Of a DNA stretch of 64,000 bases, positions 59,965 through 64,000 are shown one piece after another. A program made the translations under genes and the position numbers. Every line of letters starts with the position of its first letter. Positions within the stretch are counted from its first letter, which is position 1. The notes under the pieces are model-generated. The model was given only the letters and a program-made list of their open reading frames with translations. It did not search any database and was not told the DNA's origin. Source of the stretch: an uncultured Verrucomicrobiota bacterium (lineage in GTDB: Bacteria > Verrucomicrobiota > Verrucomicrobiia > Limisphaerales > AAA164-E04). Where the stretch lies: NCBI GenBank assembly GCA_964415055.1, contig CAYPZD010000008.1:12838-76837 (forward strand), written 5' to 3'.

Positions 59965-61257
59965 ATGAAGATACTGGTGATTGGATCTGGAGGTAGAGAG
60001 CATGCATTGGTCTGGAAACTCGCTCAATCGAGCAACGTTTCAGCCATGTGGTGCGCGCCTGGTAACGGCGGGATTGCATTGGAAAAGCTTTCCAATAGTG
60101 GCGAACCCGTACAGTGCGTGAACATTGGCGCGGAAGATCTTGAAAAACTCCTGGACCTGGCAGACCAGATCAAACCCGACCTGACCGTTGTCGGCCCTGA
60201 CAATCCACTGTCGATGGGCATCGTGGACCAATTCCAAAAAGCCGGATTCACCATCTGGGGTCCAAATGCCCAGGCGGCCCAATTCGAGGCCTCGAAAGCT
60301 TTTTCACAGGAGTTCATGCAGCGCCACGATATTCCGACTGCCCGGTCAGGAATTTTCACAACGCCAACGGAAGCATTGGATTTCGCAAAATCACTCAATG
60401 GAAAATGCGCCGTCAAAGCAGATGGTCTTGCGCTCGGCAAGGGAGTGCTGATCACGGATACAATCCAGGAAGCAGAAGCTGCCATCCAACAAGTCATGGT
60501 CGACAAATCATTTGGCACCGCCGGCAATCAGGTCGTCATCCAGGAAAAACTCGAAGGTCTTGAGATATCCATGCACGCCCTCTGCGATGGCAAGCACTAC
60601 CTGCTTTTCGATACATCACAGGATCACAAACGTGCTCTCGACGGTGACGGTGGATTGAACACCGGAGGGATGGGCACCTACTCACCTGCACCTTTTCTTA
60701 ATCCGGAACAACTTCAGAACATCAGAGAAACAGTTCTCGACAGGTGGATGAGCGGCTGTCTCAAGGAGGGAATTGACTTCAGAGGCATGCTTTATCCGGG
60801 ACTGATGTTGACCCAGGATGGACCGAAAGTTCTTGAATTCAACGCTCGTTTCGGTGACCCGGAGACTCAGGTCTACCTCATGCGATTGAAAAACGATTTA
60901 CCGGAACTACTGCTGGCCAGCGCCGAAGGTCGACTCGAAGGAATGCAACTGGAATGGTCAGACCAAGCCTCGACGTGCGTGGTCATGGCATCGGGCGGGT
61001 ATCCCGAGGCCTACGCAAAGGGCAAGGTCATCGAAGGAATCGACCGTGCGGAGACAGATCCATCGATTAAAGTGTTTCACGCAGGGACAAAGTTAAACGA
61101 TGAAGGCCAATTACTCACAGCGGGCGGACGAGTGCTGGGAGTGACAGCTCTGGGGAGCGATTTAAGTGAAGCCACTCAAAAAGCGTACAAGGCTGTAGAG
61201 GAAATTCATTTCGAGGCTTGTCATTTTCGTCGTGACATTGCCGCCAAGGCTCTGTAA
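59965..61257 (+). CDS. purD: phosphoribosylamine-glycine ligase
   Basis: 430 aa. It starts MKILVIGSGGREHAL, has ATP-grasp blocks, and LEFNARFGDPE. Confidence 0.95.
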   Translation: MKILVIGSGGREHALVWKLAQSSNVSAMWCAPGNGGIALEKLSNSGEPVQCVNIGAEDLEKLLDLADQIKPDLTVVGPDNPLSMGIVDQFQKAGFTIWGPNAQAAQFEASKAFSQEFMQRHDIPTARSGIFTTPTEALDFAKSLNGKCAVKADGLALGKGVLITDTIQEAEAAIQQVMVDKSFGTAGNQVVIQEKLEGLEISMHALCDGKHYLLFDTSQDHKRALDGDGGLNTGGMGTYSPAPFLNPEQLQNIRETVLDRWMSGCLKEGIDFRGMLYPGLMLTQDGPKVLEFNARFGDPETQVYLMRLKNDLPELLLASAEGRLEGMQLEWSDQASTCVVMASGGYPEAYAKGKVIEGIDRAETDPSIKVFHAGTKLNDEGQLLTAGGRVLGVTALGSDLSEATQKAYKAVEEIHFEACHFRRDIAAKAL

Positions 61258-61375: not shown

Positions 61376-62434
61376 ATGCGAATATTAACAGCATTTTGTT
61401 TAGCTCTTTTGCTGCAAGCAGACCTGACACTACAAATCTGGTCAGCTGAGTCGAACGAACCTGCCGACACAGCGGTGGCTGCCACGACTGGACTGCCAAA
61501 ATATGATGAAATCGTTCAGACCATCGAATCCCGTCTGGGCGATATCAGCAAAGAAGACCTTGAACATGCTGCGCTTCAGGGAATTCTCACGGAATTTCAG
61601 ACACGGGTGGAATTGAAAACACCAACCCCAAACGATGCACATCAAACCCTGCCACCATCTCTGGCAAAAAAGGAAGTCATCGGAAAGAGCATCGGCTACA
61701 TTCGAATCGCTGAAATCCGCCCATCAACTGCGAAGGAAACATTGGAAGCGGTCGAGTCACTACGGGTTAAAACGCCTCTTGGAGGAGTGGTCCTGGATCT
61801 GCGTTATGTGGGGGGATCGGATTTTGATTCAGCATTGAGTTTGGCAGCGGTTTTTATCGACGAATCAACCCCGCTTCTGGACTGGGGTAATGGCATGCGA
61901 CCTGTTCCACCAGGCACCACAAAAATCGACCTTCCCACTGTCATTCTGGTCAATGAAGCGACAACAGGTGCCGCCGAGGCTCTCGCTGCCGGGCTCCAAC
62001 AGGCAAACGCAGGACCGTTGGTCGGTCGTCAAACGTCGGGAAATGTTCAATCGAGAGAAAACATCCCGCTATCAAGCGGTCATTTCCTGGTCATTTCATC
62101 CGGATCAATCTCTCTTGCCGACGGCACCAAACTTACAGGAAAAGGTATTGAACCGGACATCGCGGTGGATGTGTCCGCAGCGGAACAAGCTGCTTTGTTT
62201 GATGATCCTTATGGGCAGATCAATCAATCACAAGTTGACGCCGGTGAACGCATGAATGAAGCGGAACTCATGCGGCGCCAGAAAGAAAATGGAGGAGCAG
62301 CCATCGATATCAACGTTCCCCCAGTGGGATCCGAAGAAACCTCCCCCAAGCCAAAAGCCATCAAGGACCCCATCCTGGCCCGGGGCGTGGACGTCTTGAC
62401 CGGGTGGCACATTTTCAGCAACTTGAAGAAGTAA
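61376..62434 (+). CDS. secreted S41 (C-terminal processing peptidase)-like protein, apparently catalytically dead and PDZ-less
   Basis: Signal peptide MRILTAFCLALLL, with S41 core colinearity (IGYIRIAEI, VVLDLRYVGGS, TVILVNEATTGAAEALA, LVGRQTSGN, GKGIEPDI). ATG 61376 is preferred; the listed ORF start 61232 overlaps purD. Confidence 0.65.
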   Translation: MRILTAFCLALLLQADLTLQIWSAESNEPADTAVAATTGLPKYDEIVQTIESRLGDISKEDLEHAALQGILTEFQTRVELKTPTPNDAHQTLPPSLAKKEVIGKSIGYIRIAEIRPSTAKETLEAVESLRVKTPLGGVVLDLRYVGGSDFDSALSLAAVFIDESTPLLDWGNGMRPVPPGTTKIDLPTVILVNEATTGAAEALAAGLQQANAGPLVGRQTSGNVQSRENIPLSSGHFLVISSGSISLADGTKLTGKGIEPDIAVDVSAAEQAALFDDPYGQINQSQVDAGERMNEAELMRRQKENGGAAIDINVPPVGSEETSPKPKAIKDPILARGVDVLTGWHIFSNLKK

Positions 62435-62488: not shown

Positions 62489-62956
62489 ATGCCAACTATG
62501 ACAAAAATCTTGTTCATTTGCACAGGAAACATCTGCCGAAGCCCTATGGCCGAAGGCTACCTTCGTCACTGGGCGAACAAAGCGGATCGTAAGGACATCG
62601 TAGTGGCCTCGGCTGGAGTGGGTGCCATGTCCGGGCAGGCTCCAAGCCAAAACTCCGTGCAAGCTCTCAATGAATGGGGAATCGACATCACGGCACAACG
62701 AAGCCAGATGGTTTCCGAGGAACTCATTCAACAGTCAGATTGGATTTTCGGAATGACGCAAGGCCATGTGGACGCCATCCGCGCCATCTTCCCGGACGCT
62801 TCCGAAAAAGTTTTATTACTTCGCCATTTCAACGAGGAACTACAGGGCTATGACAAGGAGATATCAGACCCCATTGGAGGAAGTCTGGAGATTTACAAAA
62901 CATGTCGAGATGAGATTAAACAAGGTATCGACCGTATGATTGAAGCCCTGCTTGAG
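62489..62956 (+). other. domain: low-molecular-weight protein phosphatase (YwlE/LMW-PTP family)
   Basis: The P-loop is [18 protein letters not shown] (C-X5-R-S) and the acid loop is ISDPIGGS. It is followed by the linker NTSSGSDQ. Confidence 0.85.
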
Positions 62957-64000
62957 AACACCTCATCCGGTTCGGACCAAACACTCACGATAGCCATTGG
63001 CTCCGATCACGCAGGATTTACAGCAAAAGAAGCCCTGAAAACCCATTTGGAATCAGCGACGAAACAAGTGGTCGACATGGGAACTCACAACGAGAATTCC
63101 ACCGATTACCCGGATTACGCCCAGGCGGTGGCGCAAAGCGTGGCTCAAGGGCAAAGTGATATTGGAGTGCTGGTTTGCTCGACCGGAGTCGGCATGTCCA
63201 TTGCAGCCAACAAAGTATCGGGTGTCCGTGCGGCCCTCGTACATGATGCCGAGACCGCCCGATTGGCCAGGGAACACAACCACGCAAACATTCTCTGCCT
63301 CGGTGCCAAAGGAAAAACCGAAGACGATTTATGGGCCAGTCTCCAGGCCTTTCTTGAAACAGAATGTGGAGGCGACCGACACCAGCGTCGTGTCCGAAAA
63401 ATTATAGCCATGGAACAAAAACAAAACCACTCGGTTGCAGCCGTGGATCCGGCCATCGCACAAATCATCGAAAAAGAACGCCAGCGTCAGCAGGAAAACA
63501 TTGAGCTGATCGCCAGTGAAAACTTCACCAGCCCCGCCGTTATGGAAGCCCAGGGTTCGGTTCTGACCAACAAATACGCGGAAGGATATCCCGGCAAACG
63601 CTGGTATGGCGGATGCGAATATGTCGACGAAGCCGAGCAACTGGCCATCGACCGTGCAAAACAGCTTTTTGGAGCCGAACATGCCAACGTCCAGCCACAC
63701 TCTGGTTCGGGCGCCAACATGGCGGTCTATTTTTCCACTCTCAAACCGGGTGACAAAATTCTCACCATGGATCTCAGCCACGGAGGCCACTTGACCCATG
63801 GCAACAAGGCCAATTTCTCCGGAAAGTTCTTCGAAGTCGTGCACTACGGCGTCCGAAAGGAAGATGAACGGATTGATTACGATCAATTGGAACAAATGGC
63901 CAAAGAACACCGGCCCAAAATGATCACTGTCGGGGCAAGCGCCTATCCCCGGATCATCGATTTCGAGCGCATGGCTGCCATCGCCAAAGAAGTGGAAGCT
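62489..64000 (+). CDS. continuous ORF: LMW phosphatase domain + ribose-5-phosphate isomerase B + serine hydroxymethyltransferase (3' end outside window)
   Basis: This ORF is not in the supplied track because it has no stop inside the window. I translated frame 2 by hand from ATG 62489 (or 62498) to nt 64000 and found no stop. The upstream in-frame stop is TAA 62468-62470. Domain boundaries are given in the three entries below. Confidence 0.85.
62981..63409 (+). other. rpiB: domain: ribose-5-phosphate isomerase B
   Basis: Blocks [50 protein letters not shown] and [12 protein letters not shown]. There is no stop codon before the next Met. Confidence 0.85.
63410..64000 (+). other. glyA: domain: serine hydroxymethyltransferase (N-terminal ~197 aa in window)
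   Basis: Blocks [55 protein letters not shown] and [10 protein letters not shown]. Confidence 0.9.

What the first reader, a model, noticed from the sequence alone, without database searches (positions are those of the whole stretch)
62489..64000. One stop-free reading frame joins a LMW phosphatase, RpiB and serine hydroxymethyltransferase (absent from the supplied ORF track)
Hand translation from ATG 62489/62498 gives (MPT)[20 protein letters not shown]...ISDPIGGS...MIEALLE, then the linker NTSSGSDQ. A complete RpiB follows ([13 protein letters not shown]...[14 protein letters not shown]...[14 protein letters not shown]). Without any stop (aaa att ata gcc ATG gaa, 63398-63415; the TAG at 63405 is out of frame), the frame continues into GlyA (MEQKQ...[43 protein letters not shown]...) to the window end. 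The antisense ORFs listed at 63018-63910 are shadows of this gene. In Bacillus subtilis, ywlE (a phosphatase of this family), ywlF (rpiB) and glyA are neighbours (from memory). This locus therefore looks like a conserved neighbourhood collapsed into a bi- or tri-functional polypeptide of roughly 75-80 kDa if glyA is full length. The P-loop has Ile (CTGNICRS). From memory, Ile is the phosphotyrosine-type residue, whereas the arginine phosphatase YwlE has Thr. Internal initiation at ATG 63410 could still yield free GlyA.
Basis: seen in the sequence. Interest (0 to 1): 0.6.

Follow-up and report, generated by a model that had tools for sequence, protein, structure and literature searches.

The report
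Known phosphatase-RpiB-SHMT fusion gene
One real gene in this marine Verrucomicrobia genome joins a small protein phosphatase, ribose-5-phosphate isomerase B and serine hydroxymethyltransferase into a single protein of about 720 residues; this fusion is the usual form of these genes in the phylum and was noted in print in 2008, so it is genuine but not new, and nobody has tested it biochemically.

Summary
Window 62489-64000 (+) is one stop-free frame with LMWPc, RpiB and SHMT domains. On the contig it runs on to a complete GlyA: 723 aa, or 720 aa from the conserved ATG at 62498.

It is not an assembly artefact. 28 of 30 relatives, covering the genus, the family and 13 families of the order, carry the same uninterrupted frame. 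A protein search found 3125 relatives of at least about 400 aa; all 120 listed have the three domains, most at about 720 aa, and they include Pedosphaera parvula.

Hou et al. 2008 (PMC2474590) already described this three-domain protein (Minf_1669) in Methylacidiphilum. This scan has also met it at least 8 times on other DNA.

Across the phylum the string is plastic:
- RpiB-SHMT is fused in at least 143 of 300 sampled genomes, including Akkermansia and Luteolibacter.
- The phosphatase is fused, or separated by an in-frame stop, or fused straight to SHMT without RpiB.

Catalytic residues of all three domains are conserved. In this 88.65%-complete genome the gene holds the only RpiB and the only SHMT found, and no RpiA was found. 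The phosphatase is closest to YwlE arginine phosphatases but has Ile where YwlE has Thr. The genome also encodes McsA/McsB and a separate classical LMW-PTP. The internal ATG at 63410 is conserved only in the genus and its sister genus. Interest is low to moderate.

The parts
62498..64000 (+). 5' 1503 nt of the fused gene (LMWPc-RpiB-SHMT). The gene continues 657 nt plus a stop beyond the window end, giving 720 aa from this ATG.
   Evidence: The ORF is listed. ATG 62498 (MTKILF...) aligns with the start of all relatives examined, whereas the upstream ATG 62489 is not conserved. The 95%-identical database proteins P0001 and P0002 are 720 aa.
62489..62497 (+). Alternative upstream start (MPT), probably not used
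   Evidence: In the closest relative, L003, the corresponding codon is AAG rather than ATG.
62507..62929 (+). Low-molecular-weight phosphatase domain (LMWPc), YwlE clade
   Evidence: Pfam PF01451 matches aa 7-147. The best solved-structure matches are YwlE arginine phosphatases: 4PIC at 9.5e-27 and 4KK3 at 5e-21. Wzb-type phosphatases reach only about 1e-14.
62519..62542 (+). P-loop CTGNICRS (Cys11 nucleophile, Arg17, Ser18; Ile15 at the specificity position X5)
   Evidence: The motif is read directly from the sequence. Among 156 fusion proteins, C, R and S are each present in 151 (the other 5 rows have a gap there). Position X5 is I in 87, V in 56, S in 5 and T in 3.
62867..62881 (+). General-acid loop DPIGG (Asp127)
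   Evidence: D127 and P128 are present in 156 of 156 proteins, and I129 in 151 of 156, with no aromatic residue at this position.
62957..62980 (+). Linker 1 (NTSSGSDQ) between the phosphatase and RpiB
   Evidence: Its length and sequence vary among relatives. pLDDT is below 50 at residues 154-160 of the model. In other lineages an in-frame stop occupies this position.
62990..63403 (+). Ribose-5-phosphate isomerase B domain
   Evidence: Pfam PF02502 matches aa 168-305 over the full model length. NCBIfam TIGR01120 (rpiB equivalog) scores 154.5 against a cut-off of 138.65. The best structure match is T. maritima RpiB 1O1X at 6.6e-37. D173, H174, C230, H263, N264, R297, H298, R300 and R301 are conserved.
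63404..63436 (+). Junction 2 ([11 protein letters not shown]), which includes the internal ATG 63410-63412 (Met308)
   Evidence: Relatives with the fusion have no stop here. Met308 is present in 21 of 156 proteins, all from the own genus and genus g2. pLDDT is below 50 at residues 298-309 of the model.
63437..64000 (+). Serine hydroxymethyltransferase domain, N-terminal 188 residues (the rest lies beyond the window)
   Evidence: Pfam PF00464 scores 278.3 bits on the part inside the window. NCBIfam NF000586 scores 652.8 against a cut-off of 335 on the full protein. The PLP-lysine motif TTTTHKTLRGPRGG lies in the continuation.
61376..62434 (+). Upstream neighbour: S41-peptidase-like gene, part of the conserved string purD, S41-like, fusion
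   Evidence: Pfam PF03572 scores 78.9 bits. A homologue lies upstream of the fusion in most loci of the order.
59965..61257 (+). purD (phosphoribosylamine-glycine ligase), two genes upstream on the same strand
   Evidence: Pfam finds GARS_N, GARS_A and GARS_C. Where the flank reaches far enough, the synteny is kept in the genus and family and in G090.

Best explanation
This is a genuine, inherited gene that encodes one polypeptide of about 720 aa (roughly 79 kDa) with three catalytic domains. In order they are a YwlE-clade low-molecular-weight phosphatase, ribose-5-phosphate isomerase B and serine hydroxymethyltransferase.

Shown:
- The frame is uninterrupted here and in nearly all relatives.
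- All three domains keep their catalytic residues.
- This gene carries the only RpiB and the only SHMT detectable in the 88.65%-complete genome, and no RpiA was found. The fusion protein is therefore the cell's housekeeping source of both activities.
- The two linkers are short, variable and predicted to be flexible.

Inferred:
- The fusion arose by loss of stop codons within the ancient co-linear gene string (tsaC)-ywlE-rpiB-glyA. That string is still unfused in other bacteria.
- The RpiB-SHMT joint is old and phylum-wide. The phosphatase-RpiB joint has opened and closed several times by single stop-codon changes.
- The two metabolic domains work independently, as they do in free enzymes, probably within a dimer or larger oligomer set by the RpiB and SHMT interfaces. 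Fusion fixes their 1:1 co-expression. Both feed nucleotide synthesis: R5P gives PRPP, and SHMT gives glycine and one-carbon units. purD, which consumes phosphoribosylamine (made from PRPP) and glycine, lies two genes upstream.
- The phosphatase domain is most likely the cell's YwlE-type protein phosphatase, the counterpart of the McsA/McsB arginine kinase that the genome encodes. Its substrate (pArg, pTyr or SHMT itself) is undetermined because the specificity residue is Ile, not Thr.
For: - The full 723-aa ORF is on the contig.
- 28 of 30 relatives in 13 families of the order have one open frame of 714-894 aa that covers query residues 4-723 without stops.
- A protein search found 3125 database proteins of at least about 400 aa that match the LMWPc-RpiB part. 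All top 120 carry PF01451, PF02502 and PF00464.
- RpiB-SHMT lies in one frame in 143 of the 149 other genomes listed by the junction probe and in Akkermansia proteins of 561-562 aa.
- Catalytic residues are conserved in 151-156 of 156 aligned fusion proteins.
- The own genome has no PF06026, a single PF02502 and a single PF00464.
- The own genome has an McsA-McsB operon, and McsB is found in 295 of 301 genomes of the phylum.
- A second, classical LMW-PTP lies at C13. It is closest to slr0328 at 3e-49.
- The fused phosphatase domain is closest to YwlE.
- An unfused string, Sua5/TsaC-LMWPc, rpiB, glyA, is present in L108.
- G035 has an LMWPc-SHMT fusion without RpiB, and LMWPc lies next to glyA in G090, G207 and G031.
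- On a tree of 46 loci, at least 3-4 switches between fused and split are needed at junction 1.
- In the AF2 model the domains are confident, the linkers have pLDDT below 50, and pTM is 0.56.
- The same protein was noted in M. infernorum in 2008.
Against:
- The genome is only 88.65% complete, so a second rpi or glyA gene could be unassembled.
- The specificity residue X5 is Ile or Val in 143 of 156 family members. By the published Thr/Ile rule this argues against phosphoarginine specificity.
- McsB is nearly universal in the phylum whatever the fusion state, so its presence does not discriminate.
- The nucleotide-synthesis rationale and the oligomer model are inference only.
Confidence: 0.9

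Rival explanations
1. Assembly or sequencing artefact: three separate genes were joined by a missed stop or an indel in this metagenome-assembled genome.
For: The genome is a fragmented assembly (223 contigs, 88.65% complete), and the reads could not be inspected.
Against: The same uninterrupted frame occurs in 28 of 30 relatives, including single-contig genomes (G004, G011, G013-G018). It also occurs in thousands of independently assembled database proteins. Both junctions align codon for codon with the relatives.
Confidence: 0.01
2. Dual product: besides the full-length fusion, translation also starts at the internal ATG 63410 (Met308) and gives free GlyA of about 45 kDa in this genus.
For: Met308 sits exactly where a free GlyA would begin. 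It is conserved in all 8 loci of the own genus and genus g2 (L002-L009).
Against: The Met is absent from 135 of 156 family members. No Shine-Dalgarno-like motif precedes it, although none precedes the true start either. Conservation within one shallow clade may simply reflect shared ancestry.
Confidence: 0.12
3. The phosphatase domain is a dedicated regulator or partner of SHMT, dephosphorylating SHMT or RpiB or otherwise acting in one-carbon metabolism. It would then be neither the general YwlE-type phosphatase nor a passive passenger.
For: The phosphatase-SHMT link survives when RpiB leaves the locus. G035 has a direct LMWPc-SHMT fusion, and LMWPc lies immediately upstream of glyA in G090, G207 and G031 with rpiB elsewhere. 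In Porphyromonas gingivalis a BY-kinase phosphorylates GlyA, and its LMW-PTP is inhibited by the folate precursor pABA (bioRxiv 10.1101/2025.03.11.642667). The own genome has a BY-kinase. X5 = Ile or Val fits phosphotyrosine.
Against: Retained gene order can be historical, with no functional meaning. Akkermansia-type genomes have RpiB-SHMT with no phosphatase upstream. The genome already has a classical LMW-PTP to partner the BY-kinase. The AF2 monomer model gives no confident contact between domains (pTM 0.56).
Confidence: 0.25
4. The phosphatase domain acts on a small phosphorylated metabolite rather than on proteins.
For: The DP loop is DPIGG, with an aliphatic Ile where classical LMW-PTPs have Tyr and YwlE has Phe. 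The domain is embedded between two metabolic enzymes.
Against: No member of the YwlE clade is known to me to be a dedicated metabolite phosphatase (my own knowledge). The rest of the active site is a standard protein-phosphatase P-loop.
Confidence: 0.1

Closest known systems
Minf_1669 of Methylacidiphilum infernorum V4 (Hou et al. 2008, Biol Direct 3:26; PMC2474590) and the roughly 720-aa LMWPc-RpiB-SHMT proteins of Verrucomicrobiota (for example Pedosphaera parvula, P0111)
   Same: They have the same three domains in the same order in one frame, and they are orthologous: 51-95% identity over the LMWPc-RpiB part and 56-91% over the whole protein within the order.
   Different: The RpiB domain here is fully canonical (180 bits, with the DH and RHxRR motifs). 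The Methylacidiphilales-like copies have weak RpiB domains (57-77 bits) that have lost those motifs. None has been characterised biochemically.
RpiB-SHMT two-domain proteins of Akkermansia, Luteolibacter, Prosthecobacter and other classes of the phylum
   Same: They share the same seamless RpiB-SHMT joint.
   Different: They lack the N-terminal phosphatase. In some lineages the phosphatase gene lies just upstream, separated by an in-frame stop. In Akkermansia it is not adjacent.
ywlC(tsaC)-ywlE-ywlF(rpiB)-glyA gene string of Bacillus subtilis (from memory), and the same string seen here unfused in L108
   Same: The genes are the same and stand in the same order on one strand. L108 has Sua5/TsaC-LMWPc, rpiB and glyA as consecutive genes.
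   Different: The polypeptides are separate there.
YwlE / PtpB protein arginine phosphatases (PDB 4PIC, 4KK3)
   Same: These are the best structural-database matches to the N-terminal domain. The CX5R(S) P-loop and the DP general acid are present. The cognate kinase McsB and its activator McsA are encoded in the genome.
   Different: P-loop position 5 is Ile here (Ile or Val in 143 of 156 relatives). It is not the Thr that confers phosphoarginine preference (PMC7772506, PMC8001253).

Membership tests
LMW phosphatase superfamily (Pfam PF01451) | Profile match above the curated cut-off | tested here: met
   109.7 bits against a cut-off of 23.2, at aa 7-147
LMW phosphatase superfamily (Pfam PF01451) | CX5R(S/T) P-loop with the nucleophilic Cys, plus an Asp general acid in a DP loop | tested here: met
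   C11TGNIC16R17S18 and D127-P128 are present. C11, R17 and S18 are conserved in 151 of 156 relatives, and D127-P128 in 156 of 156.
YwlE-type protein arginine phosphatase | Closer in sequence to YwlE/PtpB than to classical LMW-PTPs | tested here: met
   4PIC at 9.5e-27 and 4KK3 at 5.2e-21, against Wzb and PtpA at about 1e-14. The genome's other LMWPc shows the reverse pattern.
YwlE-type protein arginine phosphatase | Thr at P-loop position 5 (Thr11 of YwlE), which confers phosphoarginine preference | tested here: not met
   Ile15 here. The family has I in 87, V in 56, S in 5 and T in 3. The rule is taken from PMC7772506 and PMC8001253.
YwlE-type protein arginine phosphatase | Cognate arginine kinase McsB (with McsA) in the same genome | tested here: met
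   G000:C19 carries McsA (UVR motif) followed by McsB (PF00217, 221.8 bits).
YwlE-type protein arginine phosphatase | Phosphoarginine phosphatase activity | not testable with these tools
   This needs an enzyme assay on pArg and pTyr substrates.
Ribose-5-phosphate isomerase B (RpiB/LacAB, PF02502; TIGR01120) | Equivalog-level profile match over the full length | tested here: met
   PF02502 scores 180.2 bits over model positions 1-138 of 138. TIGR01120 scores 154.5 against a cut-off of 138.65.
Ribose-5-phosphate isomerase B (RpiB/LacAB, PF02502; TIGR01120) | Active-site residues of the Cys-type RpiB: the N-terminal Asp-His, the catalytic Cys in the xCxTG loop, the His-Asn, and the C-terminal RHxRR | tested here: met
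   D173-H174, C230, H263-N264 and R297-H298-R300-R301 align with the corresponding residues of T. maritima RpiB 1O1X and are conserved in 151-154 of 156 relatives. The catalytic roles are assigned from my own knowledge of E. coli RpiB.
Serine hydroxymethyltransferase (PF00464; NF000586) | Full-length profile match above the cut-off | tested here: met
   NF000586 scores 652.8 against a cut-off of 335, at aa 320-721. In the own genome PF00464 scores 561.5 bits over model positions 2-399.
Serine hydroxymethyltransferase (PF00464; NF000586) | PLP-binding Lys in the T-T-H-K-T-L-R-G-P-R motif | tested here: met
   VTTTTHKTLRGPRGG is present in the continuation of the ORF. The motif is found in 118 of 120 database relatives: TTHKTLRGPR in 117 and TTHKSLRGPR in 1.
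LMWPc-RpiB-SHMT fusion family (Minf_1669 type) | All three domains, in this order, in one stop-free frame, orthologous to described members | tested here: met

The most novel reading that the evidence does not exclude
The selected unit is the phosphatase-SHMT pair, not RpiB. Under this reading the YwlE-clade domain, whose specificity position has shifted from Thr to Ile or Val, has been recruited in Verrucomicrobiota as a built-in regulator or partner of serine hydroxymethyltransferase. It could, for example, remove an inhibitory phospho-mark from SHMT. This would give a first physiological rationale for the ywlE-glyA neighbourhood that is conserved across phyla.
Probability: 0.2. Interest if true: 0.6.

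Novelty: already known. Interest (0 to 1): 0.25.

Why it matters
For annotation, this gene should be called as one trifunctional ORF. Public records name it after only one of its enzymes, either "ribose 5-phosphate isomerase B" or "glycine hydroxymethyltransferase". It should not be split or flagged as a frameshift.

For biology, it is a clean Rosetta-stone case. A gene string conserved from Firmicutes to the PVC group is welded together in several combinations: LMWPc-RpiB-SHMT, RpiB-SHMT, LMWPc-SHMT and TsaC-LMWPc. This argues that a YwlE-type phosphatase has some unexplored functional tie to SHMT and the pentose-phosphate pathway.

The fusion is present in cultured and intensively studied bacteria. 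Akkermansia has the two-domain form; Pedosphaera and Methylacidiphilum have the three-domain form. The question can therefore be tested at the bench, although this window adds nothing unique to it.

Tried and rejected
- Promoter and terminator scan of the locus: the number of hits was no more than in shuffled sequence, and no hit was informative.
- Shine-Dalgarno reasoning for the internal start: no SD-like motif precedes either the true start or ATG 63410 in the genus, so this gives no discrimination.
- McsB presence as a discriminator of phosphatase function: McsB is present in 295 of 301 genomes of the phylum whatever the fusion state, so it is uninformative as a correlate.
- AF2 monomer model to look for fixed inter-domain packing: the domains are confident, but pTM is 0.56 and the linkers have pLDDT below 50. 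No arrangement can be claimed, and no multimer prediction was available.
- Literature search for biochemical work on the fusion: none was found beyond the 2008 sentence.
- Exact phylum-wide census: the tools list only the best 150 rows per search, so the counts given are lower bounds.
- MAGs labelled Planctomycetia, Planctomycetales or Omnitrophota at first looked like tri-fusions in the tblastn coverage. In all three the SHMT frame is only 420-430 aa, and listing the ORFs of one of them, L108, showed adjacent but separate genes.
Full report
**Observation.** Window 62489-64000 (+) is one stop-free frame of 504 codons that runs off the window end. That run-off is why it was absent from an ORF list that excludes open-ended frames. 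Pfam places LMWPc at aa 7-147, LacAB_rpiB at aa 168-305 (the full model) and SHMT from aa 317 to the window end. The window is G000:C8:12838-76837. On the contig the frame continues to a stop and gives 723 aa with a complete SHMT that includes the PLP-lysine motif TTTTHKTLRGPRGG. The TAG at 63405 is out of frame, and ATG 63410 is codon 308. All relatives begin at the equivalent of ATG 62498 (M-x-x-[I/V]-L-F), and the upstream ATG 62489 is not conserved. The likely product is therefore 720 aa, the same length as the 95%-identical database proteins P0001 and P0002.

**Not an artefact.** I searched 30 relatives with the full protein. In 28 of them, spanning the genus, the family and 13 families of the order, one open frame of 714-894 aa covers query residues 4-723 with no stop, at 56-91% identity. 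Several of these are single-contig genomes. The exceptions are fragmented or incomplete assemblies. A protein search restricted to the LMWPc-RpiB part, and to proteins of at least about 400 aa, returned 3125 hits. All of the best 120 carry PF01451, PF02502 and PF00464, most are about 720 aa, and they include Pedosphaera parvula. The conservation makes that check unnecessary for the main conclusion.

**Already known.** Hou et al. [quoted passage not shown] No later paper in the library mentions that locus or any biochemical work on the fusion. This scan has reported the same fusion on at least eight other genomes, always with the same verdict.

**Who carries it.** The nearest named records are:
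- a complete Verrucomicrobiota MAG (CP170459.1, 89% identity);
- the marine single-cell genome SCGC AAA164-E04 (74%);
- "Pedosphaera sp." ocean MAGs;
- Limisphaerales MAGs.

The window therefore comes from a marine member of the Pedosphaerales/Limisphaerales group.

In 300 genomes sampled across the phylum I saw four states.
- (a) The tri-fusion without stops occurs in about 23 genomes of at least 8 further families, including Methylacidiphilales-like ones.
- (b) The same layout with one to three in-frame stops between the phosphatase and RpiB occurs in about 27 genomes.
- (c) RpiB-SHMT as a two-domain protein of 560-650 aa occurs in very many genomes.
- (d) Unfused RpiB occurs in several families of the same class.

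A 119-aa probe across the RpiB/SHMT joint matched end to end in one frame in 143 of the 149 other genomes listed. This is a lower bound, because only 150 rows are shown. Genus g20 is Akkermansia: its 561-562-aa RpiB-SHMT proteins are named "ribose 5-phosphate isomerase B [Akkermansia sp.]". Cultured Luteolibacter algae and Prosthecobacter MAGs have the two-domain form too.

**The phosphatase-SHMT link.** In class-mates whose rpiB lies elsewhere in the genome, the phosphatase gene still sits immediately upstream of glyA. This is seen in G090, G207 and G031. G090 has the string purD, S41-like, LMWPc, glyA. G035 has a 579-aa LMWPc-SHMT protein with no RpiB domain at all (confirmed by Pfam). A MAG labelled Planctomycetia keeps the unfused string purE, Sua5/TsaC-LMWPc (itself a fusion), rpiB, glyA. 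From memory this matches the Bacillus ywlC-ywlE-ywlF-glyA order. On a quick tree of the RpiB-SHMT part of 46 loci, at least 3-4 switches between fused and stop-separated states are needed at joint 1. These loci were picked by score, so they are not an unbiased sample. The simplest history is an ancient co-linear gene string, an old RpiB-SHMT weld, and a phosphatase joint that opens and closes by single stop-codon changes.

**Anatomy and function.** In an alignment of 156 tri-fusion proteins the catalytic residues of all three domains are essentially invariant.
- Phosphatase: C11, R17 and S18 are each present in 151 of 156 (the other 5 rows have a gap there), and D127-P128 in 156 of 156.
- RpiB: D173-H174, C230, H263-N264 and R297-H298-x-R300-R301 are conserved in 149-154 of 156.
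- SHMT: the PLP-lysine motif is found in 118 of 120 database relatives (TTHKTLRGPR in 117, TTHKSLRGPR in 1).

NCBIfam puts the middle domain above the rpiB equivalog cut-off (154.5 against 138.65) and the C-terminal domain far above the SHMT cut-off.

The own genome (88.65% complete) has no RpiA, one RpiB and one SHMT, and both of these lie in this gene. The fusion is therefore the housekeeping enzyme for both reactions.

An AlphaFold2 model of the 95%-identical P0001, built with 60 homologues, gives a mean pLDDT of 80.2, confident domains, pLDDT below 50 in both linkers (residues 154-160 and 298-309) and pTM of 0.56. As a monomer it looks like beads on a string. Low confidence in the SHMT N-terminal segments is expected for an obligate dimer (my own knowledge).

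purD lies two genes upstream on the same strand, with an S41-peptidase-like gene between. This string is conserved in the genus and family. PurD joins phosphoribosylamine, which derives from R5P through PRPP, to glycine, the SHMT product. A nucleotide-supply rationale for co-expression is therefore plausible, but it is inferred.

**What the phosphatase is.** Its best solved-structure matches are YwlE arginine phosphatases (4PIC at 9.5e-27; 4KK3 at 5e-21) and 4EGS, a Thermoanaerobacter LMW phosphatase deposited under the name "RpiB". Wzb and PtpA types score only about 1e-14. The genome's second LMWPc (C13; CMGNICRSP ... DPYYGG) shows the opposite pattern: it is closest to Synechocystis slr0328 (3e-49) and to human LMW-PTP. 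The genome encodes an McsA-McsB operon and a BY-kinase. A natural division of labour would pair the classical LMW-PTP with the BY-kinase and the fused YwlE-clade domain with McsB.

Against this, P-loop position 5 is Ile here. In the family it is I in 87, V in 56, S in 5 and T in 3. Published work shows that Thr at this position confers phosphoarginine preference and that a Thr-to-Ile change shifts activity towards phosphotyrosine (PMC7772506, PMC8001253). The DP loop reads DPIGG, with an aliphatic residue where YwlE has Phe and classical enzymes have Tyr. McsB is present in 295 of 301 genomes of the phylum whatever the fusion state, so it does not discriminate. A P. gingivalis preprint reports that a BY-kinase phosphorylates GlyA and that its LMW-PTP responds to pABA. 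Together with the retained phosphatase-SHMT link, this keeps a regulatory reading alive. The substrate is undetermined.

**Internal start.** Met308 (ATG 63410) is conserved in all eight loci of the own genus and genus g2, but in only 21 of 156 family members. Elsewhere the joint has no Met. No Shine-Dalgarno-like motif precedes it or the true start. A second product cannot be excluded for this genus, but it is not a property of the family.

**Verdict.** The feature is real and conserved but already described and abundant in databases. It remains biochemically uncharacterised, and the most interesting open point is why a YwlE-clade phosphatase stays attached to SHMT.

Noticed in passing
G000:C19:116-1776 (locus L055), outside the window: An mcsA-mcsB operon (a zinc-finger/UVR protein of 178 aa followed by an ATP:guanido phosphotransferase of 375 aa) is present in this Verrucomicrobium. 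PF00217 is found in 295 of 301 sampled genomes of the phylum, so protein arginine phosphorylation machinery appears near-universal here, although it is usually discussed for Gram-positive bacteria.
   Followed up: partly
L039, L040, L046, L047 (genomes G183, G162, G141, G123; Methylacidiphilales-like): In these tri-fusions the RpiB domain is degenerate. Pfam scores are 57-77 bits against 180 bits here. The Asp-His motif reads GSDPNG, GSNFYG or VADRSP, and the C-terminal GGRHERRV motif is lost. The middle domain may be a pseudoenzyme spacer in that order. I did not check which gene supplies RPI activity there.
   Followed up: partly
L063 1026-2765 (-) (G035:C8): A 579-aa direct LMWPc-SHMT fusion with no RpiB domain (Pfam finds LMWPc at 7-142 and SHMT at 173-548). 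rpiB is elsewhere in that genome.
   Followed up: yes
L108 350-1441 (+) (CAYPYS010000003.1, a MAG labelled Planctomycetia): A 363-aa Sua5/TsaC-LMWPc fusion lies directly upstream of separate rpiB and glyA genes. This is another weld within the same conserved gene string.
   Followed up: partly
window 61376-62434 (+): The gene between purD and the fusion matches Peptidase_S41 only moderately (78.9 bits, core only). A homologue sits upstream of the fusion across the order, and Akkermansia (L059) has an S41 peptidase with intact SASASE and GKG motifs in the same position.
   Followed up: partly
L001 4035-4601 (about 2.2 kb beyond the window end, from contig position 64934 in window numbering): Downstream of the fusion is an ORF that encodes a very highly charged, low-complexity protein (Lys/Glu/Asp/Ser/Thr-rich; at least 189 aa, open at the locus end). 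I did not examine it.
   Followed up: no
PDB entry 4EGS (seen): A Thermoanaerobacter LMW phosphatase structure is deposited under the molecule name "Ribose 5-phosphate isomerase RpiB". This probably reflects name transfer from fused or adjacent genes. The same single-enzyme naming affects the fusion proteins in public records ("ribose 5-phosphate isomerase B" or "glycine hydroxymethyltransferase").
   Followed up: no
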